This document shows positions 1-34,796 of a stretch of 64,000 nucleotides of DNA, piece by piece. The translations under genes were made by a program, and so were the position numbers. Positions within the stretch are counted from its first letter, which is position 1; each line of letters begins with the position of its first letter. The notes beneath the pieces are model-generated. The model was given only the letters and a program-made list of their open reading frames with translations. It was not told the origin of the DNA and did no database searches. The stretch is from a virus. The stretch is from IMG/VR virus record IMGVR_UViG_3300023112_001138, positions 10,147 to 74,146 of that record. The stretch is one strand, 5' to 3'.

Positions 1-523
1 GGAAATTATCATTAGAAAAATACTTAAAGAAGAAACCCAAAAACCTAAACTTAATGATATCATATTAAAAGATTTATTAAAATCTTTTAATAAAAATACA
101 ATGCTACGAGATAATATCAGTGGAGATATTAATGGTATGTTATTAAAAGATGTTGATTTTTATCAATATGAAAGATTACTAGATATGGTAAATAGCGTAT
201 TACTACCACATATTGATAAAACTTATGATTTAAACATTGGAAAAGATAATGATCTTTTACAACCAATTTATTTAAAGTGGATAAGGGAAATGTATGGTGA
301 TGGAAGTTATCCACTACCTGGAGATTTGATAGAAATGGTAGAGATGGCGGGGGATGACTTAAACCCAATCCCTACTGGAACTAAAGGGGTTGTAACTTCG
401 ATTAAGAGTCATAATTTTAATGGTGTAGCCGAAGAACATTTAGATGTCAATTGGGAAAATAAAAGGTCATTAAGAGTTTTACTCCCACACGACAAAATAA
501 AAATTATTAGTAGAAATATATGA
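1..523 (+). CDS. Leader-bearing protein with C-terminal DUF4314-like domain (5'-truncated by the window edge)
   Basis: Frame is open from base 2 (EIIIRKILKEETQKPKL...) into the 101..523 ORF; base 1 'g' could end an ATG. C-terminus GDLIEMVEM..PIPTGTKGVV..VNWENKRSL resembles DUF4314. Confidence 0.65.
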   Translation, partial: EIIIRKILKEETQKPKLNDIILKDLLKSFNKNTMLRDNISGDINGMLLKDVDFYQYERLLDMVNSVLLPHIDKTYDLNIGKDNDLLQPIYLKWIREMYGDGSYPLPGDLIEMVEMAGDDLNPIPTGTKGVVTSIKSHNFNGVAEEHLDVNWENKRSLRVLLPHDKIKIISRNI

Positions 524-1002
524 GGTTCCTTATTAAAAAAATATTAAGAGAGGGGTATAGTGAAGGTATTAATGACTATAAAAAAGTACAATCACAAGAA
601 CACGAAGAATATTTCACCAACAAAAAAATATTACCTTTAATAATAAAATATTTAGATAGTATCATTAATATAGATATGATCGTTAAATCGAATGAAAATT
701 CTACAACATATACTGTTTATTTTGATGATGTAGAACCTATCGCTAAACATTATTGTTATGGGTGTAGTGGTACATTCCATTACCCTACAGGTACACACGA
801 TATATACACTATGTCACATGCGGAAGATAATGATCAATTTACTAGTGCAGTAGAAGGTGCGTTAATAGATATGTTCGGTGGTGAACTAAGTAACATGGAA
901 TTTTATAGTTTAATTTATAAATATTTATTCGATATAATAAAAAAATATATGGATAATGATATGGTTATCAATTATCCTGAAGAACACGATATGGATTGGT
1001 AA
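520..1002 (+). CDS. Hypothetical leader-bearing protein
   Basis: 160-aa ORF, ATGA overlap with upstream gene, N-term MRFLIKKILREG. Confidence 0.75.
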   Translation: MRFLIKKILREGYSEGINDYKKVQSQEHEEYFTNKKILPLIIKYLDSIINIDMIVKSNENSTTYTVYFDDVEPIAKHYCYGCSGTFHYPTGTHDIYTMSHAEDNDQFTSAVEGALIDMFGGELSNMEFYSLIYKYLFDIIKKYMDNDMVINYPEEHDMDW

Positions 1003-2099
1003 TGAAAAGATTAATTAAAAAAATATTAAAGGAGGAAATATCTAATCCTAAACAAGAGAAATATTACGAGTATATTATTAATAATATAATGAAAGATATC
1101 TCAGTAACACCGGAGAAAGTATTTTATACCAGTATGGACACGGCATTAGATAACACTGAATTAAGAGTTTATGTGGAAAATATTATGGACGACTGGAGAG
1201 AAATGGATAGAAGAGGGTGGAGAGTAAGTGATGTTGACAATACATCAACGGATTTCGATGTCGATAGATTTATTTTCGATAAACAAGGGTATAGTAGGAA
1301 AGAAGGTTATACTAACCCAATAACTAACATATTACCACATAAACAAATGCCACATTCATGGGCAATGGAAGAAGTTACATATGAAGTATTAAAAGAATTA
1401 GAAGAAAAGGGTGTAATGGTTCAGTTGGGGGGGTTCGAAGAGTTTGAACAATTTTTACCAGACTACCTAATAGAAATTGGTACATCACATAATTACAATA
1501 ATCAAATTTTCAGAATTCCTTTATATTATAATATAATAACCCTTAATTACTATTTTACTATATCAGGAAAAGAGGCTATTATAAACATGCTATTACATAG
1601 ATTAAAATATTTTTATGGTTTAAATGATGATGAGTCTAAAAAAATAGTTGGTAAACTAATATTAAAAATAGTGGGGGAATTAGAAAACGAGTATTCCTTA
1701 AAAATAGAAAAAATAGAGCCAGAGTATTATACCTTTGATGTTGGTAGGGTGGATGAGTCTACTATATCTGATTTTATAAGTTTTACCAAGGATGAATTAG
1801 GGTTAGATAATGATTTTAGTGTAGAATTAGAAGATGATGGGGATGAATTGGAAACCTTAGCGAGTTATGATATAGAAGATAATAAAGTAAAAGTGTTATC
1901 TAAAAATAGATCATTACCTGATATTATAAGGTCTATTGCACATGAATTGGTGCACCATAAGCAAAATCAAGAAGGGGTATTAACTGGGGATGAAGATGAA
2001 GGTGCTGATGGGTCCCCACAAGAGAATGAAGCCAATGCGAGGGCGGGAAAAATAGTTAGAAGATTCGGAAAGAGATATCCAGAGATTTATGACTTATAA
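1002..2099 (+). CDS. Leader-bearing protein with C-terminal HExxH zincin (IrrE/ImmA-like) metallopeptidase domain
   Basis: Likely start MKRLIKKILKEE at 1002; RSIAHELVHHKQ...ENEANARAG motif. Confidence 0.75.
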   Translation: MKRLIKKILKEEISNPKQEKYYEYIINNIMKDISVTPEKVFYTSMDTALDNTELRVYVENIMDDWREMDRRGWRVSDVDNTSTDFDVDRFIFDKQGYSRKEGYTNPITNILPHKQMPHSWAMEEVTYEVLKELEEKGVMVQLGGFEEFEQFLPDYLIEIGTSHNYNNQIFRIPLYYNIITLNYYFTISGKEAIINMLLHRLKYFYGLNDDESKKIVGKLILKIVGELENEYSLKIEKIEPEYYTFDVGRVDESTISDFISFTKDELGLDNDFSVELEDDGDELETLASYDIEDNKVKVLSKNRSLPDIIRSIAHELVHHKQNQEGVLTGDEDEGADGSPQENEANARAGKIVRRFGKRYPEIYDL

Positions 2100-2488
2100 A
2101 TTTTATCACCTACCTGTATACCATTATTTTCACAAAAATCTAGATTAACCTCTAAATTAGAATCTGCAGTTAGATTATTAGAAATGTTTGTAACGTCATT
2201 TGGATTAGCGGGTATTATTTCTGATATCTCATCTCCGTTAATGAAAACCATTTCTAAGGGTATTTCTACGTCCTTCATCCAAAAACCATTATCTACTGAA
2301 TCAAAAAACATTCCACTATTTTTACCCAAATTATCTCTATACATTAACCCCTGAGCTCGTTCTTCAACGGATGTTGGAACTTCACAATTAACATTTATTT
2401 CCTCACCTTTACCATTAATAATGGTGATGTTACATCTATTTGGGAATGGTATTCCTAAGTTCTCTAATAATAATTCATTTAATTTCAT
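2087..2488 (-). CDS. DUF192 family protein
   Basis: ERAQGLMYR, GMFF, FWMKDVEIPLEMVFI, LEVN..GIQVGD motifs. Confidence 0.85.
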   Translation of the reverse strand: MKLNELLLENLGIPFPNRCNITIINGKGEEINVNCEVPTSVEERAQGLMYRDNLGKNSGMFFDSVDNGFWMKDVEIPLEMVFINGDEISEIIPANPNDVTNISNNLTADSNLEVNLDFCENNGIQVGDKIYKS

Positions 2489-2500
2489 ACTTATAAATAT

Positions 2501-2817: not shown

Positions 2818-3756
2818 ATGAAAATTATATTAACAGAGTCACAGTTAAAAGAATTATATAAGTCTACTTATAATAGTGCTGCGGCCAAGTCGGTAGAACA
2901 GGGGAACGATGAATTAGCTTTAGACTTCCTTCACCACTCAAATGAAATGGGGATACCTGAATTAAATGGTGTTTATCCACCTGACGTAGATAACGATGGA
3001 GATACTGATGCTGACGATGCAAAACATTGTACATATTCTGACCATTGTGATTACGATATGGATGGTTCTATAGATGACACTGGAGAACCAACAAGAGACT
3101 ATGATTTTTATGGTGTTGGTACTTCTGATATGGACGCTGATGGTATTCCTGACGATGAAGATGATGAATTATCTGTAGATAGGTTTGACATTAGACAAAG
3201 GATACAAAGTGAATTAAATACTATGTTAAATGAGGTAGGCGGTTATGATTCTCAGGATATAATGGGGATTCATGGTGGTAGAGTTCATGGTGAAATAACT
3301 AGAATAGTTACCGATACAGTGGGGTTAATAAAACACTTTAGCGAACATTTAGTTAGTGGTTCCTTATCTAAGAATGATATAATGCTCGGAATTTTTAATT
3401 TTTCTGAAAAAGTTCAACATGATATAAAACGATTAAAAGAATTATCAAGTGAAATTTATATAGATGACGATTTTAAGTCATTAATGGTAAATTATATACG
3501 AGCACTACAAAAAGTTTTAAAATATTTTAAATTATTAAGCAATTTAAGTTCAGGAATAGTGGGTAGGAAACCACAAATGTTTAGTGCTGGATTAGGTGTG
3601 GATATGAGCCATAGTGAGTTATCTTTAAAAATTGCAGAGAAATTATCTAGCTTGGGTGAACACATAGAATCTTTAGGTGAAATGTTCCAAACAATTATGG
3701 GTAGATTTAGTAGTCGAATGCAGGGTAATCACGATGATAGTGAGGATATATTTTAG
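2818..3756 (+). CDS. Leader-bearing protein with DxDxDG Ca2+-binding-like repeats
   Basis: MKIILTESQLKEL leader; DVDNDGDTD, DYDMDGSID, DMDADGIPD. Confidence 0.8.
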   Translation: MKIILTESQLKELYKSTYNSAAAKSVEQGNDELALDFLHHSNEMGIPELNGVYPPDVDNDGDTDADDAKHCTYSDHCDYDMDGSIDDTGEPTRDYDFYGVGTSDMDADGIPDDEDDELSVDRFDIRQRIQSELNTMLNEVGGYDSQDIMGIHGGRVHGEITRIVTDTVGLIKHFSEHLVSGSLSKNDIMLGIFNFSEKVQHDIKRLKELSSEIYIDDDFKSLMVNYIRALQKVLKYFKLLSNLSSGIVGRKPQMFSAGLGVDMSHSELSLKIAEKLSSLGEHIESLGEMFQTIMGRFSSRMQGNHDDSEDIF

Positions 3757-3808
3757 ATACCCTTTAAAATTAACTACATTAACATTACTTTTATTAAAAT
3801 AAAGAATT

Positions 3809-4006: not shown

Positions 4007-4019
4007 TATTTATAATAGT

Positions 4020-4814
4020 ATGTCGATAAGAACTACTATTAAAAAAATACTTTTAGAAAATAATAAACGTTATAATAAATTCGCTTATAACGTAATTAAA
4101 TATGCGTATAATAATATTCGCATTAATCAGTACAGTGGTAAAGAAGGTGAATTTAAATCTAAATTTGGGAGTGTTGATAATTGGATTAGAAATATTAAGT
4201 TGTATTTTTTTGAGCCGATGGAAAAACAAAAATCTATGTATAGTTTAGATAAGGCTATTGATTATGGAAACAACCCACTCATTGACGGAATCAAACAAAC
4301 AGATATAATAAAAATGTTATCAGAATTTATAGTGAATTTTGAGGAGTCTGGTGAAAAAATAGAAGTGGACGTAATTAGTGGGTTTAATTTTGATGTATAC
4401 TTGGAAAAAAATTATTTTAAGTGTACTAATGAATTTTTTGAATTTGTATGGGACGTTTATTTAAAAGATGCTAGAAATCATTGGAACGAGAGTCCAAAAG
4501 ATAAGTATTGGGAAGAAATAAAAGATGGTGTCATCGAAAAAATGGAAGATGTGGAGTGGCAAGAGGAAAACGGTGTTTCATTTGATCAATTAAATAACGA
4601 AAAGGAATATTTTATGTCATATTGGCATTACCCAATGGACTCTTTGGGTTGGGATAGGGATGATTTATGTGAATTTTATAAAGATATGTTATCTGAAAGG
4701 GGAGATGAAAAATTAAGAAAAGTAATCGAGTATCACGATAACCAATTTATAAATACAACTATAATAGACCATAACCTTTATTATGTAATTGACAGGGATA
4801 AGTTCCTATTTTAA
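4020..4814 (+). CDS. Hypothetical leader-bearing protein
   Basis: Likely start MSIRTTIKKILLEN at 4020, 6 nt after TATTTAT. Confidence 0.75.
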   Translation: MSIRTTIKKILLENNKRYNKFAYNVIKYAYNNIRINQYSGKEGEFKSKFGSVDNWIRNIKLYFFEPMEKQKSMYSLDKAIDYGNNPLIDGIKQTDIIKMLSEFIVNFEESGEKIEVDVISGFNFDVYLEKNYFKCTNEFFEFVWDVYLKDARNHWNESPKDKYWEEIKDGVIEKMEDVEWQEENGVSFDQLNNEKEYFMSYWHYPMDSLGWDRDDLCEFYKDMLSERGDEKLRKVIEYHDNQFINTTIIDHNLYYVIDRDKFLF

Positions 4815-5228: not shown

Positions 5229-5246
5229 ATATTTAAATAAATAACT

Positions 5247-5260
5247 ATATTTATAAATAT
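5247..5260. promoter_or_regulatory. Perfect 14-bp palindrome ATATTTATAAATAT, putative bidirectional late promoter
   Basis: Self-complementary; lies between divergent genes 5228(-) and 5259(+). Confidence 0.6.
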
Positions 5261-6098
5261 GAAGATAATAATTACCGAAAACCAGTTAAAAAAAATACTT
5301 TTAAATGAAAATCAATATACAAAAAGTAATGTAACTTTTAATGATATATGGTTTTGTAATAAAGTAGTTAAATGTGATGAAAATCAAGATAGGGATGATA
5401 GCCCACTTTATTTAGTACAACAAAGATTAATAGAAGAGTTAAATAAAAATCCGGAAACAAAAAAATGGGTGATAAAAAAGAACTTCACAGCAGATAAATC
5501 TTTTGGTCCAACTACCGCTAAGGCAATTGGGATGTATTATACTAATGGTGAAAGTGAATTTGAGTGTCCAGTTAATATCGGACCAAAATTATTAAAAAAG
5601 TTAGGTTTTGAACCACCAGAAGAATTAACAGAAGATGAAAAAATATTGGCAGTTACATTAACTATGGAAATGTCTAGTTACAATGAAAATGAAATTAAAG
5701 CAATATCTAATGTAATTGCAAATAGATCATATATACGTAATAAATCTGTGGTAGATATAGTTAAATCTTGTAATAAGAAAAACATTTGTCAATTCTCTGG
5801 GTGGAATGATTATAAAGGTGAGGATGTCGACACTGTTATATGTAAAGAAAGATCGTATGAGGATGATTCTTGGGAAACTGCGGTAAAGTATGCGAAGTTA
5901 TTGTTGTCGGGTGCAAACTTTTCAGATAATACTAATGGTGCAACACATTATTATAACCCTAACAATCCAGACGTTAAAAAAAACCCACCTAATTGGGGTG
6001 AAGGATTTGATACTTGGGTACCACATATTAAATTAATTCATTCATATGGTAGGGATACTACAACTAATTGGGCAAAAAATCCAGTTATAAGAAAATAA
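5259..6098 (+). CDS. Cell-wall hydrolase (SleB/Hydrolase_2-like) with PG-binding-like segment and N-terminal leader
   Basis: AISNVIANR, CQFSGWN, DNTNGATHYYNP; ADKSFGPTTAKAI; leader MKIIITENQLKKILLNE. Confidence 0.8.
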   Translation: MKIIITENQLKKILLNENQYTKSNVTFNDIWFCNKVVKCDENQDRDDSPLYLVQQRLIEELNKNPETKKWVIKKNFTADKSFGPTTAKAIGMYYTNGESEFECPVNIGPKLLKKLGFEPPEELTEDEKILAVTLTMEMSSYNENEIKAISNVIANRSYIRNKSVVDIVKSCNKKNICQFSGWNDYKGEDVDTVICKERSYEDDSWETAVKYAKLLLSGANFSDNTNGATHYYNPNNPDVKKNPPNWGEGFDTWVPHIKLIHSYGRDTTTNWAKNPVIRK

Positions 6099-6360: not shown

Positions 6361-6388
6361 TATATATTTATAAATAAAAGTTAAGAGT

Positions 6389-8014
6389 ATGAAATATATA
6401 ATTAGTGAAAACCAATATAAGATATTATTAAAAGAAGATAGGGTTACATTTTTAAAGACAAATAATGTAATTACAAAAGATGACCTTAAAAAATACCTTA
6501 AAGGTGAAAAAGAAGTATCCCAAGATCACCCAGAAGGTGGGATGAAGAAAAGAATTAAGCTTGAACCTATTCAAGGTCATGATGGTATCGATATAGGTTA
6601 TATCGTAACAAACAAAAAAGGTAAGGTGAGTATTAAAGTCACAGAGGAGGTTTTTGATAACATGGTTGACTCTGACCCAACAAATAATAAATCATTTGTC
6701 CAGTGGATGCTAGGGGTGTTTAGTCGACACCTTAAAGATGGTGATACTGATCAAGCAGTTAGATTTTTATCTGAAGATTTACCTGAAGCTAATGAATATC
6801 TTGAAGTTTTTGAAAGGGTTAGAAAGAAAAAAGTATTTAAAACTGGTGCACCTAATAGACCTAACGCACCCGATAATGTTACCGACATAAATCAATATAA
6901 AGATTTGGCACATCTCTACTCCATTGTTAGCCCATTTATCGGCGCTGATGAAGAAGATGAGGATGATGGAGTAAGCCCTATATGGAAAAAAATGAAAAAG
7001 TATATTGATCTTGGACATGCTAGGTTAGCGTATAGAGATAATGACGTATTAGTTTATATTCCAGATACTATAGAATCTAGTTGTGACCCATTAGGTAATT
7101 TAGCTTCATGGTGTACGAGAAGAGAAGGGAATTCTTATTTTAAATCTTACCGAGAAGGGAATAAAAAACCAGATGGTAGTAATTCAGATTTATATGTAGT
7201 TATACCTAAAGAAGTTTTTGAAGGTGATGACGTTGGTGGGAGGTTTCCATTACAATTCCATTTTGAAACTGGACAATTACATGATAAAAACAATTCATCT
7301 ATAGAAAATGATTTTAATAATTTAATGAGTAATTATAGTGGGGCAAAGGAATTCTTTAAAAGAGAGTTAGGGGTATTAGCAACTGGAGATATTGAGCAAG
7401 GATCTGGATTAATGGATAGTAGGTATTTAAAGTACCTTAATAAGTTCGGTGGTAAAGCAAAAGATGTAATGACTGATGCTACATATAAAAAAGGTGTAGA
7501 ATCTATTAGAAAATTAGCATCAGAACAAACAGGACAACTTCAAAATAATAAGTATTTAAAGTGGTTAATGGAAAATACTGATGGTGTGCAAATAACGGAT
7601 TATTTGGATCCTAGTGTGGAGGTATTAGATTTTAGTAATATGGAATTAACAGAGCTTCCAGACATCTCGAACTTCGTCAAGGTAACTAGACTTTCAGCTA
7701 ATCAGTGTGGGTTAGTTAAATTACCACCTGTTAATTATTTACCTAAAAGTATTGAGGTTTTAACTATGACAGGAAATCAAATTAAAGAGGTTCCACTGAA
7801 AGATTATGGGACATTAACTAATTGTTTTGTAATGAATTTTGGTGACAACCCAGTTACAAAAATAAATGTGGAGGTACTGGAGAAATTGGTTAGGGAGGCG
7901 TTAGCTAGATTTGTATTAGCAAGTGTTAACTTAGATAATCTTTCACCTGAAAATCTTGCACAATATAGGAGGTTTGAGGAAGATCCCGATAGTATAGGAT
8001 ATTTAGTGGCGTAA
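6389..8014 (+). CDS. Leader-bearing protein with C-terminal leucine-rich repeats
   Basis: MKYIISENQYKILLKED; LDFSNMELTELP / LSANQCGLVKLP / LTMTGNQIKEVP / MNFGDNPVTKI; central SWCT..YF..Y..QFHF block. Confidence 0.8.
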   Translation: MKYIISENQYKILLKEDRVTFLKTNNVITKDDLKKYLKGEKEVSQDHPEGGMKKRIKLEPIQGHDGIDIGYIVTNKKGKVSIKVTEEVFDNMVDSDPTNNKSFVQWMLGVFSRHLKDGDTDQAVRFLSEDLPEANEYLEVFERVRKKKVFKTGAPNRPNAPDNVTDINQYKDLAHLYSIVSPFIGADEEDEDDGVSPIWKKMKKYIDLGHARLAYRDNDVLVYIPDTIESSCDPLGNLASWCTRREGNSYFKSYREGNKKPDGSNSDLYVVIPKEVFEGDDVGGRFPLQFHFETGQLHDKNNSSIENDFNNLMSNYSGAKEFFKRELGVLATGDIEQGSGLMDSRYLKYLNKFGGKAKDVMTDATYKKGVESIRKLASEQTGQLQNNKYLKWLMENTDGVQITDYLDPSVEVLDFSNMELTELPDISNFVKVTRLSANQCGLVKLPPVNYLPKSIEVLTMTGNQIKEVPLKDYGTLTNCFVMNFGDNPVTKINVEVLEKLVREALARFVLASVNLDNLSPENLAQYRRFEEDPDSIGYLVA

Positions 8015-8085: not shown

Positions 8086-8250
8086 ATGTCAAAAAGAAAG
8101 AAAAAAGTGGTTAGGTTAACAGAAACAGAAATGGTTAGCTTAATTGAAAACATCGTTAACGAAGTAAAAAGAGAAAAGAAAAGAGAAATTACAGAATCTA
8201 GAAATAGAAAACCTGTAAGTAGAAAACCAGTATCTAGAAGAAGAAGATAA
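8086..8250 (+). CDS. 54-aa micro-protein with leader and Arg-rich tail (not in ORF track)
   Basis: Manual translation MSKRKKKVVRLTETEMVSLIENIVNEVKREKKREITESRNRKPVSRKPVSRRRR*; ATATTTAT at 8040; fills the 8014-8270 gap. Confidence 0.8.
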   Translation: MSKRKKKVVRLTETEMVSLIENIVNEVKREKKREITESRNRKPVSRKPVSRRRR

Positions 8251-8269: not shown

Positions 8270-9652
8270 ATGTCTAAAAATTTATCAGAAGAAAGAATTA
8301 GGATGAGAAAACTTATGGGGTTTACCTATGAGGATAATTCTCATGATGTATTGGCGGAACAGAATATTGGTAAATCTATAATTTCTGAACAGGGGGAAAA
8401 AGAAGAAGTTGGAGGAGAAGATTGTGTCACTATTAGTCATGTAGGGAGATTCCCAGTGGATGGTATTGCAGGGTCCGGTGCATTTACAACGTTTATGGAT
8501 AAAATAGAGACCACTATTAAAGGTAATGCTAAATTAGCGGATAAAATTACAAAAGGTTTTGTATATGTAACAGATTTTAGTCTTATTGGTGGCGCAAGTA
8601 ATCATTATGAGGGTCATTCTGTGACACCTGAAAAAAATAATGACCGTAAAAGTGATTATAGTGGACAAGATTATACTGAAGATAATAAGTCATCTCACTT
8701 TAAGAAAAATAAAGAATTATCAGTAAATCGAGCTAAAGGTTTGGCAGATGAATTAAACGGGGAGGATGGATTAAAACGTATTAATGTTCAATTCGATGAG
8801 GGTATTTTAGATAATGCTAAAAATAACGCACAAGGATATATTATAGATACAGGGGGAATTAATGATAAACCTAATAAATCAAGCTGGACAATTAATGGTG
8901 TAACATACCAACCCGGTCAAGTAGTTGAAGTTAGTATGACTATTTGTTACCAATCAGAAAAACAGGAGGAAAATCCTGAAACAGGAACCACAGAAACGGT
9001 AATAACCAAAGAACAGGTAACAGTACTAAAAAAGTGTTTTAATGGTGCCACAATTAAAGTAATTTATGACCCAAAAGATCTGAAGAAAAGAGGGCTTCCA
9101 GACCATAGTTGTAATAAAGCAGTTTATGATATATGGGCAAATGGTTATAAGATAAAAAGAACACCAACGTTAGATTACGCTAGTTTAAATAATAAAGGGT
9201 ATTTAGATGATGCTGAGAAAGAAGGGCGGAAAAGGATAAATACGTTTACTTTAGAGATAGATGGGGTAAATAGTGAGTTCTTTAATGAGGATATTATAGG
9301 TAAACATAGTGGAAGATTAGTGATTACGGCAGCATGTAGGAAGACAAAAGCAGGGAAATGGAGATCAAAAACGTGGAAGTTAAATGGAAAGAAAATGGAT
9401 CCAAGTGACTGTCATTATGGCGTAGGGAAAATAATAGTAGATACCGCTGAAGGAACCGACTCTAAAGTAGTGGTAACACCTAGTATGTGGGGAGTAGAGA
9501 AAAATGTTGCAGAATTTCCAGCTTGTGAAAATATAATTACTGAGTTAATGACTGATAAACCTAAAGTTATAGAAAAAATAAAAACTTGGTGGAAAAAAAT
9601 AAATAGTAAATCGGATAAGGAAGAAACAAAAAAAGAAGTAACAAGATTCTAA
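8270..9652 (+). CDS. Putative virion protein with OmpA/MotB-like motif
   Basis: Leader MSKNLSEERIRMRKLMG; IGGASN...NKELSVNRAKGL resembles the OmpA-C NxxLSxxRA motif. Confidence 0.6.
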   Translation: MSKNLSEERIRMRKLMGFTYEDNSHDVLAEQNIGKSIISEQGEKEEVGGEDCVTISHVGRFPVDGIAGSGAFTTFMDKIETTIKGNAKLADKITKGFVYVTDFSLIGGASNHYEGHSVTPEKNNDRKSDYSGQDYTEDNKSSHFKKNKELSVNRAKGLADELNGEDGLKRINVQFDEGILDNAKNNAQGYIIDTGGINDKPNKSSWTINGVTYQPGQVVEVSMTICYQSEKQEENPETGTTETVITKEQVTVLKKCFNGATIKVIYDPKDLKKRGLPDHSCNKAVYDIWANGYKIKRTPTLDYASLNNKGYLDDAEKEGRKRINTFTLEIDGVNSEFFNEDIIGKHSGRLVITAACRKTKAGKWRSKTWKLNGKKMDPSDCHYGVGKIIVDTAEGTDSKVVVTPSMWGVEKNVAEFPACENIITELMTDKPKVIEKIKTWWKKINSKSDKEETKKEVTRF

Positions 9653-19274: not shown

Positions 19275-19793
19275 ATGAAAAAGAAAGTTAAGATATTTGG
19301 TAAGGAAATTAAGCGGGCAACCAGACGTAAATTAATGGAGAATGTTATGGAAAACTGGGAAATGAAGGACACTTACAGTAAAAAGAAATATAAACAAACC
19401 CCTAGAGAAGGTGGTATTGAGAATGTATTTGGTCAATATGCTGAAGATATGGATCCTGCGGTAATTAGATACATGAGAAAAAATCCCGATGCGATTCTAA
19501 GAAGAATGGCTAAGTTGTATCCAGAAATTTATATGAGACACCTACCAGAACAATCACCAGTTATGGATGATTGGGAATTTGAAGAAAAAGGGGTAGACAT
19601 AGTAGATGAAACATACTATGGTTTTGAAAACTCTGGAGATATACCTAGTAATTTCAAACCAGAACAAGATGACACAGTAAAAGTGGGTCCAAATGCAGTT
19701 AAAACAGAAAGTAAGATTAAAACTGTAACAGTTAATGAAATTAAAAAAATGTTAGGTAGAAAATCAAAAAAGAAGAATAAATTTAGAAGATAA
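19275..19793 (+). CDS. Hypothetical protein with basic leader ending LME
   Basis: MKKKVKIFGKEIKRATRRKLMEN; basic C-terminus. Confidence 0.75.
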   Translation: MKKKVKIFGKEIKRATRRKLMENVMENWEMKDTYSKKKYKQTPREGGIENVFGQYAEDMDPAVIRYMRKNPDAILRRMAKLYPEIYMRHLPEQSPVMDDWEFEEKGVDIVDETYYGFENSGDIPSNFKPEQDDTVKVGPNAVKTESKIKTVTVNEIKKMLGRKSKKKNKFRR

Positions 19794-23188: not shown

Positions 23189-24034
23189 ATGAAGATTATA
23201 ATAACAGAGTCACAACATAGGAGAATAGTAAAGGAAGAAACCAAACAGATGGAATTGGCCAATAAAGTAAAACAAGGGTTGTCAAGTGCAGACCTAAAAA
23301 CAACTATGTATGAAATCACTACCTTATATTCATATAGTGAAGAAGAAATTATTAATAATTCAGTGTTAATGGAGTTAGTTAAAGAGAAAATGTTAAAAGA
23401 AATAAAGGATAATTACTATATATCTAAAGATTTAAGAGATAAGTATGGAAACTATTTTGGTTTGGTTGGGCAAAGCGCAGCTAAAGAAATCGTTCAAGGT
23501 GGGTCAAACCCTTATTCTAAGTTTTTGCAATTAGATGCGGTTTTAAAAACTATACCCCGTGGTTATTCTATAACAGAATCAAGTATAGAGATAGTAAAAG
23601 AAATGAGAGATGGGTTAACTTATGATGCGATACAATATCTTTTTGATAACTTTGAAGTCGCTGGTGCAATTAAAAGGGCATCAATTATGAAAGATAGGTC
23701 GGGTAATTATGATGAAATATACCCCTACGTTAAAGAATGGGCGATTAAACATGGTATAACCTTATTTGAGAAACATAGGGGATTAACATTTATAAAGAAA
23801 GATGGTATGATGCAGTCTTTGGTTAACTACCTAAAGGATGTTAACCCCAAAACGAAGTCGGGATTTTTGGATTATATTAACTCCAGGGGGAGATCAACAG
23901 GTCAACATGCGTATTTTTGGAAAGCAGCCCAAGAATCTGGAATTATTACCCCTGTTAGAAATGGTAGACAGATTACCTATCAGTTAGGTCCCAATTATGA
24001 AGCTTGGAAAAACGATAATTTAGTTGCATTTTAA
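23189..24034 (+). CDS. Leader-bearing protein, possible C-terminal winged helix
   Basis: MKIIITESQHRRIVKEE; ..AAQESGIITPVRNGRQITYQLG. Confidence 0.7.
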   Translation: MKIIITESQHRRIVKEETKQMELANKVKQGLSSADLKTTMYEITTLYSYSEEEIINNSVLMELVKEKMLKEIKDNYYISKDLRDKYGNYFGLVGQSAAKEIVQGGSNPYSKFLQLDAVLKTIPRGYSITESSIEIVKEMRDGLTYDAIQYLFDNFEVAGAIKRASIMKDRSGNYDEIYPYVKEWAIKHGITLFEKHRGLTFIKKDGMMQSLVNYLKDVNPKTKSGFLDYINSRGRSTGQHAYFWKAAQESGIITPVRNGRQITYQLGPNYEAWKNDNLVAF

Positions 24035-27904: not shown

Positions 27905-28678
27905 ATGAATAACTTTGGAAAAATAAAAGATACCTTTAACTTAATTCTAACAGAATCTATCATTAAAAAAGATAGTGAAGGTAAAAAATTATTTATTAGT
28001 TACTTGAAAGAACTAAAAGAAAACAAATCATTAAAATCACAATTTTTACTATATAAGAATTTAAGTGATAAAAAATTTATTAATGAGTCTGATGCCAAAT
28101 ACTATATTAAAGAAAATATCGAACTATTAAAAAAATTAGATAAAAAAGAAATTAATAGTGGGTCAAAAAAATTAGTATCTTTATTAGAGGGTAAAGAATT
28201 AGTTAAAGAAAATATAGAATTATATAACCATATTAATGTATTAGTAGAAACTAAAAAAACAGCTTCCTCTATAGATAAAATTCAAGAGTCAATTAATTTC
28301 ATCACAAGAAAGATGATGGAAGTAGATGAAGAAGAAGTTGAACAATATGAATCTCTAAATTTACCACCTAGTGTATTAACTAAATTGGCAATTAATAGAT
28401 TTAATTTAAAATATTCAGATATTACAGAAAGTGAAAAAAAAATAATCAAATCAGTTTTAAACGGCACAGATGAAAACAAAGAAGATGTGTACGTAAACCT
28501 TAAAAAAGAATGTATTGATTTAATCGATAGTAAATTAAATGAAAATACTGATTTGGATATGAAAGATAAGTTACTCAGAGTAAAAGACAAACTATTGAGT
28601 ATGGCTTATAATCCAGATGAATATGTTGGTGACATCGATAAGGTTTACCAACTTAAACAATCAGTGGCCACTGATTAG
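27905..28678 (+). CDS. Putative prohead-core helical protein
   Basis: Between portal and protease; late motif at 27884; K/E-rich; ILTES. Confidence 0.6.
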   Translation: MNNFGKIKDTFNLILTESIIKKDSEGKKLFISYLKELKENKSLKSQFLLYKNLSDKKFINESDAKYYIKENIELLKKLDKKEINSGSKKLVSLLEGKELVKENIELYNHINVLVETKKTASSIDKIQESINFITRKMMEVDEEEVEQYESLNLPPSVLTKLAINRFNLKYSDITESEKKIIKSVLNGTDENKEDVYVNLKKECIDLIDSKLNENTDLDMKDKLLRVKDKLLSMAYNPDEYVGDIDKVYQLKQSVATD

Positions 28679-29928: not shown

Positions 29929-29972
29929 AGTTTTTCTTAACATAGATATATTTATTAGTAAAGTATGTCACT

Positions 29973-30665
29973 ATGTTAGAAATATTAAAGAGTAATGAAG
30001 TAAATAAAAAAGGTATTCTTGTAGAATACGATTCAGGATACATCTCTCCAAAAGATAATAAACATTTTATTAATGAGGTAAATAAATTAACCAAGGGTGG
30101 AACAATAGTTGAAACTCCTTTGGTTGTTTATGCTGTAATGCAGAAATATGGTGTTGAGAATAAGAACGAAAGGATATACCCTGAAAATATTTTAAGAAGA
30201 GAAGCAGAAAACTACCTTAAACTAATTAACGAAAGAAGAGCAATGGGTGAGGCAGATCACCCGGAGAGTTCAATAGTATCGATAAGTAGGATTTCACATA
30301 ATGTCACAGAATTATGGTGGGAGGGAAATGTCCTAATGGGGAAATTAGAAATTATAATGTCACCAGGATTTGTCAACCAAGGGATTATTTCTTGTGAAGG
30401 AGATTTAGTTGCTAATTTACTACGTAATAATTTAAAGATGGGTGTATCTTCTAGAGGTGTAGGTTCCCTGGAGAAGGAGCATGGTAAAAATATAGTTCAA
30501 GATGACTTTGAATTAATATGTTGGGATGTGGTAACATCACCGTCAACTCCCGGTTCTTGGATATATAATAGAGAACCAAGTAAGGAAGAACAAATGGCAG
30601 AATCTAAAGATAATTCTGATAAGAATTTACTTATTGGTTCTTTAGATGATTTTTTATGTGACTAA
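29973..30665 (+). CDS. Prohead core protease (T4 gp21-like)
   Basis: NKNERIYP, AMGEADHP, ISHNV, GVSSRGVGS, WDVVTSPSTPGS. Confidence 0.95.
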   Translation: MLEILKSNEVNKKGILVEYDSGYISPKDNKHFINEVNKLTKGGTIVETPLVVYAVMQKYGVENKNERIYPENILRREAENYLKLINERRAMGEADHPESSIVSISRISHNVTELWWEGNVLMGKLEIIMSPGFVNQGIISCEGDLVANLLRNNLKMGVSSRGVGSLEKEHGKNIVQDDFELICWDVVTSPSTPGSWIYNREPSKEEQMAESKDNSDKNLLIGSLDDFLCD

Positions 30666-30776: not shown

Positions 30777-32105
30777 ATGGCTACAAAAAGAAAATCAATC
30801 ATCGAAGAGGCTTTGCTAGAAGCTAAGTCTTTAGAGGATGCCTTAAAAGCCAATACGAAAGAAATACTTGCCACTCATATGAAGCAAGAAATTGAGAGTA
30901 TCGTAGAGTCGTCTCTGAAAGAAGAAGACGAAGAATTTGAAATCGATATAGAAGGGTCCGATGAAAATGAGGATGGAATGTCAGTTGACGATGTTGTAAC
31001 TGGAGATGATTCTGAAGAACTAATTAATTTAGATGCATTTACTGCAGATGAAGAAGGTGACGCAGAATTGGAATTAGATCTTGATCTTGATTTACCTGAT
31101 GACGGTGAAGAGTCAGATATTGATGTTTTGGAATTACCTATGGATTTATTAGGTGGTGATGAAATAGATTTAACTGGTGCACCCGATGATGAAGTACTTA
31201 AAGTTTTCAAAGCAATGAGCGATGATGACGAAGTAGAAGTAATCAAAGATGAATGTGGAATTCACTTAACAGATAACGAAACAGGTGCTGAGTATTACAT
31301 TAAGGAAAGTATGGAAGAACTGGATGGAATGGCAGAAGGTTGTGATGACTCTTTGGAAGAAGGTTGTGAAGAATTGGAAGAAGAAACCATTTATGAAATA
31401 GAAATGGATGATCAAGGATACGATGATAAAGAAGATGAATCTTTAGGTATGAGGACCGGTAAGGAACTTGAAGAAGAAGAATCATATTCAGATCGTAGAG
31501 AAGATTCTTACGGAAAATGGGGGGATCGTGACGATGAATCTTTGGAAGAAGATCATACACTTGCTAGGACTAAAGGATACCAAAGAAAAGGTGGACATAG
31601 AAATAGGCAAGAAGAATCTCGTAAACCACGTAAACCAATCTCTGAAAGGAGAAATTCACGTAAACCAATCTCTGAAAGGAGAAAAACACCTAAGAATGTA
31701 AGCAAAGTAGCTGACTCTAAAATAATGAAAGAATACAAAGAACTTAAGAGTAAAAATGAAGAATACAAAGGAGCTCTTAACGTATTCAAAGATAAACTTA
31801 ATGAAGTTGCTTTATTCAATACAAATTTAGCATACGTAAATAGATTGTTTACTGAACACTCTACCACTAAAAAAGAAAAAATGAGCATCTTAAAGAGGTT
31901 CGATGAAGCTGATAGTGTTAAAGGTTCTAAATCTATTTATAAAACTATTAAATCAGAATTGGATCGTAAATCACCAATTACTGAATCAGTAGAGAAGAAA
32001 GTAAACAGAACTGTTAAGTCATCGGCTTCAGATTTAAACGAATCTACAGCATATGTAGATCCACAAATCGTAGCGATTAAAGATTTAATGAAAAGGATAT
32101 CATAA
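30777..32105 (+). CDS. Prohead scaffold/core protein (gp22-like position)
   Basis: Between protease and MCP; extremely acidic centre, coiled coil, many [IL]xE sites. Confidence 0.8.
   Translation: MATKRKSIIEEALLEAKSLEDALKANTKEILATHMKQEIESIVESSLKEEDEEFEIDIEGSDENEDGMSVDDVVTGDDSEELINLDAFTADEEGDAELELDLDLDLPDDGEESDIDVLELPMDLLGGDEIDLTGAPDDEVLKVFKAMSDDDEVEVIKDECGIHLTDNETGAEYYIKESMEELDGMAEGCDDSLEEGCEELEEETIYEIEMDDQGYDDKEDESLGMRTGKELEEEESYSDRREDSYGKWGDRDDESLEEDHTLARTKGYQRKGGHRNRQEESRKPRKPISERRNSRKPISERRKTPKNVSKVADSKIMKEYKELKSKNEEYKGALNVFKDKLNEVALFNTNLAYVNRLFTEHSTTKKEKMSILKRFDEADSVKGSKSIYKTIKSELDRKSPITESVEKKVNRTVKSSASDLNESTAYVDPQIVAIKDLMKRIS
31627..31684 (+). repeat. 28-bp direct repeat, 30-bp period (RKPISERR x2)
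   Basis: cacgtaaaccaatctctgaaaggagaaa occurs twice. Confidence 0.9.
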
Positions 32106-32137: not shown

Positions 32138-33889
32138 ATGGGACATTTATTAAACTCAGGTGAAGTCGGAAATATCGGACTTGAACACTTGAAACAAATA
32201 AGATCTAAAACTATTTCGAAGTGGAACAAAATTGGTTTCCTAGAAGGTTTAAAAGGTCACGTAAGAGAGAACATTGCTCAGTTATATGAAAACCAAGCAT
32301 CGGCTCTTTTAAACGAATCTACGAGTTCAAACTCATCAGGTTCATTCGAAACAGTTGTTTTTCCAATTGTAAGGAGAGTATTCTCTAAATTATTGGCTAA
32401 TGACATCGTTTCAGTACAAGCTATGAATATGCCGATTGGTAAATTATTCTTCTTTGTACCGAAAACAACTGGTAGGAATCATGCAGCCTTAAACGGACCA
32501 GCATTGTCAAATCAGGAATGTGTATTTTCAGCTTGTGGTGGTAACACACTATCAGTATTTCAAGAAAAGAATCTTTATGATATCTTTTATAATGATGGAT
32601 TATTTGATGCGTCTAAAGGACAATCAACACTATTTTCGGATGGTGGAATTGATCCAGTTATCTTAAGTGCAAACGGAGAATCCGTTTCAACAATATTTGC
32701 TGATCAACCTTTAGCGGCTGATGGTAGTATGAGAAATTTAACTTTCTGTATTACTGGATTTACTGGTACAGGTGCTGGTAGAATGGTTGGTGCAGATGGT
32801 AATGAAATGGATACTGAGGCTTTCTTAGCTTCATTACACATAGTAAATGGTTCTGACCCAATTATGGCTGGTGACGGTAGTGGTAATGTAGTTATTGCAG
32901 CCAATGCTAACGTACCATTTAGATTAGTAGCACAAAAATATGGAAAAGGTATTGTCGATTACGGTGATATTTGTACTCCAGCAGGTTGTTTACTAGTTGA
33001 AGTGGATCTTACAACACCAGCTTGTGTTAGTTGTAGTGCTAATACCTTCGATGGTTACATTGGTGGTAGTGACGCAACAACATCAGCGGCAACATTCAGT
33101 GTAAACTGGATGACATATGCATCTTTAGAATATGCAACTGAAATGGGTGAGGTATCATTCGAACTTGATGAAGTTGTTGTTTCTGTAACAGAGAGAAAGT
33201 TGAGAGCAACTTGGTCTCCTGAACTAGCACAAGATGTTAGTGCATTCCATAACATTGATGCTGAAGCTGAATTAACGGCTTTATTATCTGAACAAGTAGC
33301 AGCTGAAATCGACAGAGAGATTCTTAGAGATTTAAGAGTAGGTGCAGCTTGGCAATTGAGATGGGATTACAATGGTTGGAAACGAACTGCTAGTGGTGGT
33401 TTCAACGCTTACACTCAAAAAGAGTGGAATCAAACGTTGATTACTAAAATTAATCAGTTATCAGCTCAAATTCATAAATCAACTCTAAGGGGTGGTGCTA
33501 ACTTCGTAGTAGTATCTTCTGAGATATCAGCTATTTTTGATGACTTAGAATACTTCCACGTATCAAATGCGGCTCCAGAGCAAGATCAATACAACATGGG
33601 TATTGAGAAAGTAGGTTCATTAGGAGGACGTTACACAGTGTATCGTGACCCTTACGCACCAGCTAACTCAATAATTGTTGGACATAAAGGAAAATCGTTA
33701 TTGGATACTGGGTACATTTATGCACCTTACGTACCATTACAATTGACTCCAACGTTACAAAACCCATTCAACTTCGCACCAACGAAGGGGATAATGACAA
33801 GATACGCTAAGAAAATGGTTAATAACCGTTTCTACGGAGCGTTGACTGTTGATGGTGTTGTTACATTTGACATCAATGAGTTGAGATAG
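32138..33889 (+). CDS. Major capsid protein (T4 gp23-like)
   Basis: LYENQA, PIVRRVF..LANDIVSVQ, RKLRATWSPELAQD, EIDREI, GYIYAPYVPL, GIMTRYA. Confidence 0.96.
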   Translation: MGHLLNSGEVGNIGLEHLKQIRSKTISKWNKIGFLEGLKGHVRENIAQLYENQASALLNESTSSNSSGSFETVVFPIVRRVFSKLLANDIVSVQAMNMPIGKLFFFVPKTTGRNHAALNGPALSNQECVFSACGGNTLSVFQEKNLYDIFYNDGLFDASKGQSTLFSDGGIDPVILSANGESVSTIFADQPLAADGSMRNLTFCITGFTGTGAGRMVGADGNEMDTEAFLASLHIVNGSDPIMAGDGSGNVVIAANANVPFRLVAQKYGKGIVDYGDICTPAGCLLVEVDLTTPACVSCSANTFDGYIGGSDATTSAATFSVNWMTYASLEYATEMGEVSFELDEVVVSVTERKLRATWSPELAQDVSAFHNIDAEAELTALLSEQVAAEIDREILRDLRVGAAWQLRWDYNGWKRTASGGFNAYTQKEWNQTLITKINQLSAQIHKSTLRGGANFVVVSSEISAIFDDLEYFHVSNAAPEQDQYNMGIEKVGSLGGRYTVYRDPYAPANSIIVGHKGKSLLDTGYIYAPYVPLQLTPTLQNPFNFAPTKGIMTRYAKKMVNNRFYGALTVDGVVTFDINELR

Positions 33890-33914
33890 TCTTAGTTAGA
33901 TTATAAGTAACTTT

Positions 33915-33947
33915 AAAAGGGGTGGATTTATTTCTACCCCTTTTTTT
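33915..33947 (+). terminator. Rho-independent terminator after MCP
   Basis: aaaaggggtgga...tctacccctttt plus T-run. Confidence 0.85.
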
Positions 33948-33983
33948 GTTTTATAAGATATTTATTATTAAATTAGAACCAAT

Positions 33984-34796
33984 ATGAGGATTAAGAAAAA
34001 AGATGTGTTATTAGAAGCTCAATTAATAGATACTACTTCCGAATTTACCCCACAAGAAAAAAGATTGTTAAAAACATTAAAAAAGAAGTTTGGTAAGGGG
34101 GGTTATGACTCTGATTATGACAGATTTGTTGGTGCAGCATTTTTAATTGAGGACATGGGGATTCCTTATGATCAAGCATATGACTTATCTTTAACTCATT
34201 GGTGGCATGGAGATAAATTATATCAAGAAGTTGATCCAATCTATAAAAAAGAAGATAGAGGGTGGCTTTATAGAAAATTAATACATCAGCTATTATCACC
34301 ATATATAGAAGGTAGGGGTGAAACAATTGGCGATGCCACCATAACATGGGAAGATCCTAACCATATAATTTCACAAAAAGATTTATTTACTGTTAAAGAA
34401 AGTGTTACATTATGGTCCGGAACTTTGGGGTTTACTTTATACATCCCTTTTAGGGGGAATATTTTGGGGATACCATCAAGTGACGTGATTCACGGCGTGA
34501 GGCACCGTTACGATATCTCAGATAAAAATACTCTGATGGTGTATATTAAATTTATACCATACGATGAAAAAGGTCACCCTAAAATGGGTACACATGTTAA
34601 GTTTGATGTAAAATATGTTGTTGGGGATTCCACGATGAGGCATGAAAATAATAATGAAAAAAATATGATGAGTTTTGATATTCCTATTCCCTCCCCATTA
34701 GATAAAGATAATATGTATAAAATTTTTACTGACTCTTTAAAGGATGTATTGGAGAAAATAGAAAGTATGACTTTTACTTTAAACCCACCTGAATAA
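33984..34796 (+). CDS. Hypothetical leader-bearing protein
   Basis: MRIKKKDVLLEAQ; late motif at 33958. Confidence 0.75.
   Translation: MRIKKKDVLLEAQLIDTTSEFTPQEKRLLKTLKKKFGKGGYDSDYDRFVGAAFLIEDMGIPYDQAYDLSLTHWWHGDKLYQEVDPIYKKEDRGWLYRKLIHQLLSPYIEGRGETIGDATITWEDPNHIISQKDLFTVKESVTLWSGTLGFTLYIPFRGNILGIPSSDVIHGVRHRYDISDKNTLMVYIKFIPYDEKGHPKMGTHVKFDVKYVVGDSTMRHENNNEKNMMSFDIPIPSPLDKDNMYKIFTDSLKDVLEKIESMTFTLNPPE

What the first reader, a model, noticed from the sequence alone, without database searches (positions are those of the whole stretch)
1..34796. Modular capsid-address leader system: at least 15 unrelated proteins share a short N-terminal leader ending in a prohead-protease-type [ILV]-x-E site
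Seen in sequence: N-termini EIIIRKILKEE (1), MRFLIKKILREG (520), MKRLIKKILKEE (1002), MKLNELLLEN (2488-), MKIILTESQL (2818), MSIRTTIKKILLEN (4020), MKIIITENQLKKILLNE (5259), MKYIISENQYKILLKED (6389), ..VVRLTETEMVSLIE (8086), MSKNLSEERIRMRKLMG (8270), MRIKRLKEQ (15773), ..RRKLMEN (19275), MKKKDIIKSLISEK (19795), ..IVKKHLREA (20528), KLTFKNIITED (22056), MKIIITESQHRRIVKEE (23189) and MRIKKKDVLLEA (33984). The downstream bodies are unrelated (peptidase, muramidase, LRR, DUF192, nucleotidyltransferase). The scaffold (ALLEA, PITES, DLNES) and MCP (LLNES) carry the same kind of site. Established: T4 gp21 cleaves after [IL]-x-E, and the T4 internal proteins use a ~10-aa cleaved capsid-targeting sequence. 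Inference: this phage has extended that into a plug-in address tag (two sub-types, MK(I/Y)I(I/L)(T/S)E(S/N)Q and IKKIL(K/R/L)E) that loads a payload of enzymes into the head for release at infection. The host-promoter genes and the glycan genes largely lack the tag.
Basis: partly seen in the sequence, partly recalled or inferred. Interest (0 to 1): 0.9.

Follow-up and report, generated by a model that had tools for sequence, protein, structure and literature searches.

The report
Shared capsid-cargo leader on phage proteins
An uncultured T4-like phage of Bacteroidota and its relatives put one short peptide, ending in the cut site of the phage's own head protease, on many unrelated proteins; it probably works like phage T4's tag for loading proteins into the capsid, but neither cutting nor packaging has been measured.

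Summary
The core observation is real. Nine proteins in the window start with one leader family.

The two "sub-types" are halves of one two-part leader. Its full form in relatives has 22 residues, M-KK-(V/I)I(K/R)-LTE-SDLxxIVKRVIxE, and contains two hydrophobic-x-Glu sites.

- **Selection:** it acts on the protein, because identical residues often use different codons.
- **Bodies:** they share no detectable similarity.
- **Regulation:** leader genes share an ATATTTAT upstream box with terminase, portal and protease genes. The glycan genes lack both box and leader.
- **Protease:** the phage encodes a gp21-type (Peptidase_S77) prohead protease. Invariant L-x-E sites sit at the end of the capsid protein's N-terminal region and in the scaffold.
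- **Spread:** a leader profile matches 9,167 protein clusters in public metagenomes, almost always at residue 1. A complete 296-kb relative has 32 matches; T4 and a cultured Flavobacterium phage have none.
- **Modularity:** modules occur both alone and fused, with the leader kept at the joint.

Best reading (about 0.6): a T4-style capsid-targeting propeptide removed by the head protease. The principle is already known for T4, and this scan has noted similar leaders on other DNA, so this is a new variant of a known kind.

The parts
1..523 (+). Leader protein. The true ATG lies two bases before the window and the leader is (M)EIIIRKILKEE at window 1-34. The body has a weak DUF4314 match.
520..1002 (+). 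Leader protein, short-form leader MRFLIKKILREG (520-555). Its start overlaps the stop of the gene upstream.
1002..2099 (+). Leader protein, short-form leader MKRLIKKILKEE (1002-1037). The body has a weak IrrE/M78-like match, below cut-off.
2818..3756 (+). Two-module leader protein. Long-form leader MKIILTESQLKE (2818-2853), then an acidic spacer, then a degenerate internal leader near residue 124 (about 3187-3240). The second module is homologous to a stand-alone, leader-headed gene in relatives.
4020..4814 (+). Leader protein, short-form leader MSIRTTIKKILLEN (4020-4061).
5259..6098 (+). Leader protein, long-form leader MKIIITENQLKKILLNE (5259-5309). The body is a cell-wall hydrolase (Hydrolase_2). 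Orthologs keep the leader down to 32% identity. In the AlphaFold2 model, residues 1-20 are low-confidence and detached from the body.
6389..8014 (+). Leader protein, long-form leader MKYIISENQYKILLKE (6389-6436). 541-residue body with a weak leucine-rich-repeat match.
8086..8250 (+). 54-residue micro-gene: a near-canonical leader (VVRLTETEMVSLIENIVNE) followed by a basic tail.
8270..9652 (+). Type C leader protein (N-terminus LSEERIRMRKLMGFTYE). This variant is specific to the contig.
15773..16564 (+). Probable leader variant (MRIKRLKEQEVSDIIAKE). The N-terminus and the upstream TATTTAT box are conserved in about 50 viral loci. Weak nucleotidyltransferase match.
19275..19793 (+). Degenerate leader (GKEIKRATRRKLMEN). 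Its homologs in relatives carry the canonical leader.
20528..21940 (+). Conserved protein of the head region. The N-terminal segment ends at HLRE (residue 22); that Glu is present in 100% of 20 relatives.
23189..24034 (+). Leader protein, long-form leader MKIIITESQHRRIVKEE (23189-23239).
27905..28678 (+). Protein between portal and protease, the position of T4 gp67/gp68. Conserved sites ILTE at residue 17 and DITE at residue 175.
29973..30665 (+). Prohead protease of the gp21 type (Peptidase_S77), the presumed enzyme that cuts the leaders.
30777..32105 (+). Scaffold protein with eight conserved hydrophobic-x-Glu sites, including PITE (403) and DLNE (422), both 100% conserved.
32138..33889 (+). 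Major capsid protein of the gp23 type. The N-terminal region (32138-32317) ends at an invariant L-[LIM]-[NTS]-E at residue 60. After it the sequence becomes variable until the conserved VRR motif.
33984..34796 (+). Protein downstream of the capsid gene. Its N-terminus MRIKKKDVLLE is conserved in homologs. Genes at the same position in other relatives start MKKIIKKLLRE.

Best explanation
The leader is an N-terminal propeptide of the same functional kind as the T4 capsid targeting sequence.

**Proposed mechanism:**
1. Leader genes are expressed with the head genes from promoters that share an ATATTTAT box.
2. The leader's short helix docks the cargo onto the scaffold or core while the prohead assembles.
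3. The Peptidase_S77 prohead protease (29973-30665) cuts after the conserved Glu residues: L-T-E inside the leader and hydrophobic-x-E at its end.
4. This frees the cargo inside the capsid, and it leaves with the DNA at infection.
5. In fused proteins the same element acts as a cleavable joint between modules.

**Shown:** the leader family, its position at residue 1, selection at protein level, its modularity, the protease gene, conserved sites in capsid and scaffold proteins, and the shared upstream box.

**Inferred:** docking, cleavage, packaging and ejection.
For: - **Position:** N-terminal enrichment holds in independent relatives. Of the best 150 of 9,167 matching clusters, 140 have a copy at residues 1-3.
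- **Conserved Glu:** Met1, Glu9 and Glu22 are invariant in 24 canonical leaders. When the two Glu columns are masked from the scoring matrix, 11 of 14 new hits still have Glu at the last column and none has Asp. In T4, Asp at this position blocks processing (PMC9026906).
- **Protease:** one Peptidase_S77 gene occurs in each of five related records. gp21 cuts after L/I-x-E, and T4 propeptides are 7-65 residues long (PMC9026906).
- **Head proteins:** the capsid protein's N-terminal region ends in L-x-E in all 72 sequences compared, and the scaffold has eight conserved sites.
- **T4 record:** it shows the same design, with gp23 cut after FLTE65, gp24 starting MAKINELLRE and Alt starting MELITELFDE. 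Mature chain lengths in the PDB agree for gp23 and gp24.
- **Protein-level selection:** up to 5 of 8 identical leader residues use different codons between paralogs.
- **Bodies:** unrelated to each other; 64 of 66 have no Pfam domain.
- **Orthologs of 5259:** they keep the leader down to 32% identity, with Glu17 in at least 90%. The AlphaFold2 model has residues 1-20 at pLDDT about 50 with a short helix, and the body above 90.
- **Fusion and fission at the leader:** a 410-residue protein with an internal leader matches a stand-alone 124-residue module headed by the leader. Of 63 internal copies, 34 have another hydrophobic-x-Glu site within 12 residues upstream, against 28% expected.
- **Upstream box:** ATATTTAT precedes 24 of 87 genes. 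These include the terminase, portal and protease genes and nearly all leader genes or their operon heads. The reverse-complement control word occurs before 2.
Against: - There are no virion proteomics, no N-terminal sequencing and no cultured member of the clade. All hits checked come from metagenomes.
- The leader has no sequence similarity to the T4 tag, and the profile finds nothing in T4.
- Hydrophobic-x-Glu is common in this AT-rich proteome, 0.02 per residue, so the site alone is weak evidence.
- 32 matches in a single genome is far more than T4's handful of packaged proteins.
- 60 of the best 150 hits carry extra internal copies, some at the C-terminus. Targeting alone does not need these.
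- Helical amphipathicity is not clearly above shuffles.
- A conserved phage ClpC-like ATPase is an alternative binding partner.
Confidence: 0.6

Rival explanations
1. The leader is a docking or recognition helix for another shared partner and has nothing to do with the capsid. The obvious candidate is the phage's ClpC-like AAA+ unfoldase (10331-12808, minus strand), perhaps with the Hsp20 (13892-14362).
For: - The ClpC-like gene has Clp_N, two AAA modules, a UVR motif and the ClpB_D2-small domain.
- It is present in three of four related records, often next to leader genes.
- It has the same ATATTTAT box.
- Clp ATPases and Hsp20 are reported as frequent or core genes in related Bacteroidota phage lineages (PMC9723584, PMC12619734).
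- The motif also occurs internally and at C-termini.
Against: - No known Clp recognition signal resembles the leader.
- This reading does not explain the strict Glu, never Asp, at fixed positions, or the matching sites in capsid and scaffold proteins.
- In the complete 296-kb relative most leader genes lie far from the Clp gene.
Confidence: 0.13
2. The element is cut by the head protease but does not address anything. It would be only a removable pro-segment or polyprotein joint, with entry into the prohead decided by the protein bodies or by chance.
For: - Internal copies sit at module joints with extra hydrophobic-x-Glu sites upstream.
- Fusion and fission occur exactly at the leader.
- Each leader holds two candidate sites.
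Against: - A bare cut site needs three residues. Here 12-22 residues are conserved across 9,167 clusters, and in the orthologs of 5259 the leader stays conserved while the body falls to 32% identity.
- For cleavage to happen at all, the substrate must already be inside the prohead with the protease.
Confidence: 0.12
3. The shared N-terminus is a by-product of DNA-level processes. It would be a recombination joint for swapping gene cassettes together with promoter and start region, or a translation-initiation optimum. There would be no function as a peptide.
For: - The leader travels with a conserved upstream box.
- The A-rich MKK start is typical of well-translated genes.
Against: - Paralogous leaders differ by many synonymous codons.
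- Specific residues (Glu9, Glu22, Leu7) are invariant.
- Internal in-frame copies exist without promoters.
- 520 and 1002 have leaders but no upstream box.
Confidence: 0.04
4. The leader is a recognition sequence for a modifying enzyme. An earlier scan finding proposed this for a shared tag in phage RB43, linked to a radical-SAM enzyme.
For: The lead comes from earlier finding e1-127136. Many unrelated small proteins share one leader here too.
Against: No radical-SAM domain occurs in any of five related records, including the complete 296-kb genome. The control genomes all gave matches.
Confidence: 0.02

Closest known systems
Phage T4 capsid targeting sequence on internal proteins IPI, IPII and IPIII, and the N-terminal propeptides of Alt and gp24, removed by the gp21 prohead protease
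   Same: - A short N-terminal peptide on otherwise unrelated proteins.
- It ends in hydrophobic-x-Glu.
- The phage has a gp21-family (Peptidase_S77) protease, a gp23-type capsid protein, a gp20-type portal and a scaffold.
- The cargo is hypervariable (PMC9026906, PMC3012670).
   Different: - No sequence similarity to the T4 tag.
- Longer, 12-22 residues, and two-part with two candidate cut sites.
- Tens of copies per genome and thousands of clusters, against a handful in T4.
- Also used internally at joints of multi-module proteins.
- No experimental evidence.
Propeptides of head and inner-body proteins in phiKZ, 201phi2-1 and SPN3US, cut by their prohead protease
   Same: Many head and ejected proteins are processed after Glu by a related protease, and propeptides carry redundant sites (PMC9026906, PMC5694885).
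   Different: - Their motif is S/A-x-E, whereas here the third residue before the cut is I, L, V or M.
- Those propeptides are not one shared portable sequence.
- The capsid gene set differs.
CTS-like leaders noted earlier in this scan on other uncultured T4-like phages (for example MIKLKDLLKE, and a 14-residue tag in a Bacteroidota megaphage)
   Same: Same design, same inferred role and same kind of circumstantial evidence.
   Different: The leader sequence is different. These are unchecked AI notes, not independent evidence.
Encapsulin cargo-loading peptides
   Same: A short portable peptide directs diverse cargo into a shell with an HK97-type fold.
   Different: - They are usually C-terminal and are not cleaved.
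- There is no portal, scaffold or protease.
- This is a functional analogy only.

Membership tests
T4-type capsid targeting sequence / gp21-processed N-terminal propeptide | Located at the extreme N-terminus, roughly 7-65 residues long (10-19 in the internal proteins) | tested here: met
   Leaders of 12-25 residues start at Met1. Of the best 150 library hits, 140 start at residues 1-3.
T4-type capsid targeting sequence / gp21-processed N-terminal propeptide | Ends in the gp21 cleavage motif L/I-x-E | tested here: met
   Glu22 is invariant, with I/L/V/M two residues before it. A second L-T-E site has an invariant Glu9. In the masked-column test 11 of 14 hits have Glu and none has Asp.
T4-type capsid targeting sequence / gp21-processed N-terminal propeptide | The genome encodes a gp21-family prohead protease with a T4-type head gene set | tested here: met
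   Peptidase_S77 at E 4e-22, and PHROG head maturation protease at 5e-40. Portal_T4 and a gp23-type capsid protein are present. One protease gene occurs in each of 5 records.
T4-type capsid targeting sequence / gp21-processed N-terminal propeptide | Shared by proteins whose mature parts are unrelated | tested here: met
   No blastp similarity between the bodies. The profile matches 9,167 clusters at 50% identity.
T4-type capsid targeting sequence / gp21-processed N-terminal propeptide | Sequence relationship to the T4 tag (MKTYQEFIAE) | tested here: not met
   The leader profile finds no match in the T4 genome. Only the M-K start and the hydrophobic-x-Glu end are alike.
T4-type capsid targeting sequence / gp21-processed N-terminal propeptide | Necessary and sufficient for packaging into the prohead, and removed by the protease | not testable with these tools
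   This needs proteomics or reporter fusions. There is no cultured member.
phiKZ-type prohead-protease propeptides | Cleavage motif S/A-x-E | tested here: not met
   The residue two before the conserved Glu is I/L/V/M in the leaders and L in the capsid protein.
RiPP-like leader recognised by a radical-SAM maturase | A partner radical-SAM enzyme encoded in the same genomes | tested here: not met
   PF04055 is absent from 5 records, including a complete genome. The controls were positive.
Encapsulin cargo-loading peptide | A C-terminal, uncleaved peptide with an encapsulin shell lacking portal and protease | tested here: not met
   The leader is N-terminal, and the genome has a portal, a scaffold and a protease.

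The most novel reading that the evidence does not exclude
A two-part, doubly cleavable 22-residue address tag marks thousands of otherwise unannotated protein families (9,167 clusters) as virion-delivered effectors of a globally distributed clade of Bacteroidota jumbo phages. Modules are freely fused and split at the tag. A conserved ClpC-like unfoldase and an Hsp20, which appear to be co-regulated with the head genes, serve as dedicated loading or unfolding machinery for this cargo.
Probability: 0.12. Interest if true: 0.8.

Novelty: new variant of a known kind. Interest (0 to 1): 0.52.

Why it matters
- **Finding injected proteins from sequence:** if the leader marks packaged, injected proteins, a simple profile could pull a phage's first-strike arsenal out of metagenomes. 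That would cover anti-defence factors and envelope-acting proteins, without any culture. Here it would be about 9,000 protein clusters, nearly all with no known domain.
- **Scale:** it would show that the T4 packaging-tag principle can grow to tens of cargo species per virion, including multi-module chains cut apart inside the head.
- **Engineering:** the tag is a candidate handle for loading foreign proteins into capsids of phages that infect Bacteroidota.
- **Limit:** the principle itself is textbook T4 biology, so the advance is in breadth and in a new tag, not in kind.

Tried and rejected
- **De novo motif finding:** EM on relatives' N-termini converged on a generic MKK-rich start and was uninformative. 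I used fixed patterns and HMMs instead.
- **Cultured phages:** tblastn of the 5259 protein and of a 27-residue leader against cultured phage records found nothing.
- **Amphipathicity:** the helical hydrophobic moment is only marginally above shuffles for some leaders, so I do not use it as evidence.
- **Bare [ILV]-x-E counts:** too common to support individual members.
- **Radical-SAM rival:** tested and rejected.
- **DNA-level explanation:** rejected on synonymous variation.
- **Homologs of the DUF192 gene (2488, minus strand):** none found in viral contigs, so its short leader-like start stays unresolved.
- **PDB sequence searches:** 20528 and 16977 gave no match.
- **Capsid N-terminal region versus long leader:** the end of the capsid protein's N-terminal region (ENQ...LLNE) looks like the long leader. 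The leader HMM does not score this phage's own capsid protein, though it scores the Flavobacterium phage one at 8 bits. I keep this as a lead only.
- **Type C leader:** not found outside this contig.
Full report
**Context**

The window is bases 10147-74146 of a 74,146-bp uncultured virus record of about 30% G+C. It carries a T4-type head module:
- terminase (24077);
- gp20-type portal (25927; Portal_T4, E 2e-75);
- a Peptidase_S77 (gp21-type) prohead protease (29973; Pfam E 4e-22, PHROG head maturation protease 5e-40);
- an acidic scaffold (30777);
- a gp23-type major capsid protein (32138), which matches the T4 gp23 and gp24 structures.

Cultured relatives are distant. The best capsid matches are about 40% identical over part of the protein, in a Microcystis phage and a Flavobacterium phage. 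IMG/VR holds hundreds of close relatives with capsid identity of 58-88%. The lineage resembles the large Bacteroidota phages described from metagenomes (PMC9723584, PMC12619734). Text searches of those two papers for leader-related terms found no description of an N-terminal leader.

Yes for the core. Nine proteins in the window begin with one family of leaders: the ORF cut by the window start, 520, 1002, 2818, 4020, 5259, 6389, 8086 and 23189. A tenth lies at contig position 1285.

In relatives the full form has 22 residues: M-(K/R)K-(V/I)(I/V)(K/R)-L(T/S/N)E-x(D/Q/E)L-xx-(I/L)V-K(K/R)-(V/I)(I/L)-x-E. The window's long leaders are three residues shorter.

Three tests used data independent of the window:
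- The pattern [KR][KR][ILVM][ILVM].E occurs 57 times in the first 30 residues of ORFs in 80 related loci. Shuffles that keep N-terminal composition give 5.5, and the N-terminal rate is 8.5 times the internal rate.
- An HMM built only from relatives gives 12 N-terminal hits of at least 2 bits in this contig, against 0.95 expected. None falls in the 37 genes to the right of 34796.
- A profile of 24 canonical leaders, run against 1.84 billion cluster representatives, matches 9,167 at E<=0.001 and 196 at E<=1e-10. Of the best 150, 140 have a copy at residues 1-3.

The other listed items:
- **8270 (type C, MRKLMG):** shares this N-terminus with two upstream genes (3 copies against about 0 expected). 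The variant is confined to this contig.
- **19275:** supported, because its homologs carry the canonical leader.
- **15773:** has a conserved, leader-like N-terminus in about 50 viral loci.
- **20528, 27905 and 33984:** conserved proteins of the head region with conserved N-terminal hydrophobic-x-Glu sites.
- **2488(-), 19795 and 22056:** not distinguishable from chance. A bare [ILV]-x-E within residues 5-30 is expected in 41% of proteins. It occurs in 35% of right-hand genes and 68% of left-hand genes.

**What kind of signal is it?**

- **It is selected as a peptide.** Between paralogous leaders, up to 5 of 8 identical residues use different codons.
- **It sits on unrelated bodies.** There is no blastp hit at E<0.01 among 24 bodies. 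Recognisable domains are few:
  - Hydrolase_2 in 5259;
  - PG_binding_1 in two upstream leader proteins;
  - weak DUF4314, M78-like and leucine-rich-repeat matches.

  In the wider family, 64 of 66 proteins of at least 140 residues have no Pfam domain.
- **Orthologs conserve it.** Orthologs of 5259 keep the leader nearly unchanged down to 32% overall identity, with Glu17 in at least 90%. The AlphaFold2 model (mean pLDDT 88) has residues 1-20 at about 50 with a short helix, and the body above 90 from about residue 21. The leader therefore looks like a detached extension.
- **The units are modular.**
  - The second half of 2818 is homologous to a stand-alone gene in relatives that starts with its own short leader.
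  - A 410-residue metagenomic protein with an internal leader has, in its own 90% cluster, stand-alone 124-residue versions of the second module that start with the leader.
  - Of the best 150 library hits, 60 have two or more copies. This list is biased, because total score favours double copies.
  - Of 63 internal copies, 34 have a further hydrophobic-x-Glu site within 12 residues upstream, against 28% expected.

**Link to the head protease**

T4 gp21 cuts after L/I-x-E. T4 propeptides are 7-65 residues long, and the 10-19-residue propeptides of the internal proteins are capsid targeting sequences. Asp in place of the final Glu blocks processing (PMC9026906).

In this clade:
- Met1, Glu9 and Glu22 are the only invariant columns of 24 canonical leaders, and I, L, V or M lies two residues before Glu22. 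L-T-E at residues 7-9 forms a second site.
- With both Glu columns masked from the scoring matrix, 11 of 14 non-training hits still have Glu at the last column and none has Asp. This sample is small and partly related by descent.
- The capsid protein's N-terminal region ends in L-[LIM]-[NTS]-E at residue 60 in all 72 sequences compared. A variable Ser/Thr/Ala-rich stretch follows, up to the conserved VRR motif that aligns with T4 gp23.
- The scaffold has eight conserved sites. The protein at the gp67/gp68 position has ILTE at residue 17, and 20528 has an invariant Glu at residue 22.
- The T4 record shows the same design: gp23 is cut after FLTE65, gp24 starts MAKINELLRE and Alt starts MELITELFDE. 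PDB chain lengths (456 against 521 residues, 417 against 427) agree with the gp23 and gp24 cuts.

**Regulation and distribution**

- ATATTTAT lies within 60 nt upstream of 24 of 87 genes, mostly 12-46 nt before the start. These include the terminase, portal, core-protein and protease genes, 33984, the Clp gene and nearly all leader genes or their operon heads.
- The reverse-complement control word occurs before 2 genes. No glycan gene has the 8-mer.
- The box is conserved upstream of 15773 orthologs.
- Leader matches per record: 32 in a complete 296-kb relative; 14, 13, 6, 3 and 3 in other, partial relatives; 1 weak match in one more; none in T4 or Flavobacterium phage immuto.

**Rivals**

- **Radical-SAM recognition tag.** This lead came from an earlier scan note. 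It is excluded, because the domain is absent from five records while the controls were positive.
- **DNA-level origin.** Contradicted by synonymous variation, by internal in-frame copies, and by leaders on genes without the upstream box.
- **Cleavage-only joint.** This does not explain conservation of 12-22 residues across thousands of clusters.
- **Docking onto the ClpC-like ATPase.** The gene (10331-12808, minus strand) is conserved, carries the same box and is often next to leader genes, so this cannot be excluded. It does not account for the strict Glu positions or for the matching sites in head proteins.

**Verdict**

The leader family is real, modular and very widespread. The most likely function is a T4-style capsid-targeting propeptide removed by the S77 protease, and in fused proteins a cleavable joint. 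I put this at about 0.6.

Nothing here measures cleavage, packaging or ejection. All sequences checked come from metagenomes.

The principle is established for T4 and is explicitly proposed as a general mechanism of T4-like phages (PMC9026906, PMC3012670). Similar leaders have been noted elsewhere in this scan. This is therefore a new variant of a known kind. Its distinguishing features are the two-part design with two sites, its use at module joints, and its scale.

Noticed in passing
window 10331-12808 (-), 12877-13800 (+), 13892-14362 (+): A ClpC-like double-AAA+ ATPase (Clp_N, UVR, ClpB_D2-small), a DNA N6/N4 methylase and an Hsp20 lie between the leader gene clusters. The Clp gene has the ATATTTAT box and is present in three of four related records, often beside leader genes.
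   Followed up: partly
window 32270-32320; L081:19143-20753: The end of the capsid protein's N-terminal region (LYENQASALLNE) resembles the long leader (ITENQLKKILLNE). The leader HMM scores residues 47-61 of the Flavobacterium phage immuto capsid protein at 8 bits, but does not score this phage's own capsid protein. The leader may derive from, or mimic, the capsid cleavage region.
   Followed up: partly
L083:4690-4755 (contig 4690-4755, upstream of the window): The 412-residue type C leader protein ends, just before a real stop codon, with a leader-like segment (KVITLTESDVKKII). This C-terminal copy recalls the C-terminal processing of T4 Alt, or it may be a remnant of a lost downstream module.
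   Followed up: no
window, upstream of 24 gene starts (e.g. 5247-5254, 6364-6371, 24054-24061, 29948-29955): An ATATTTAT box lies within 60 nt upstream of head genes and leader genes, mostly 12-46 nt before the start. The reverse-complement word occurs before only 2 genes. The box is conserved upstream of 15773 orthologs in many viral contigs.
   Followed up: partly
L079:310-498 (-): A relative encodes a small ORF on the opposite strand near the head genes that I read as ribosomal protein bS21-like, by eye and untested. If right, it links the clade to the bS21-encoding Bacteroidota phages of PMC9723584. I saw no such ORF in this window.
   Followed up: no
L090:255-4172 (-), L091:4145-4663 (+) (296-kb relative G002): Tandem arrays of paralogous genes of about 150 residues all start MKIIITESQYK. 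One copy lies beside ORFs that I read as baseplate-like, without testing.
   Followed up: no
proteins P0066 versus P0215, P0217, P0218: The same cargo module exists both as a stand-alone, leader-headed 124-residue protein and as the second module of a 410-residue protein with the leader kept internally, preceded by LAIILE-N.
   Followed up: yes
contig 1285-2157 and 3517-4755 (L083); window 5259-6098: Three leader proteins are directed at peptidoglycan: two carry PG_binding_1 and one carries Hydrolase_2. Leader-bearing PG-binding proteins recur in metagenomes (P0042, P0046-P0048). Part of the cargo may therefore act on the cell wall during entry.
   Followed up: partly
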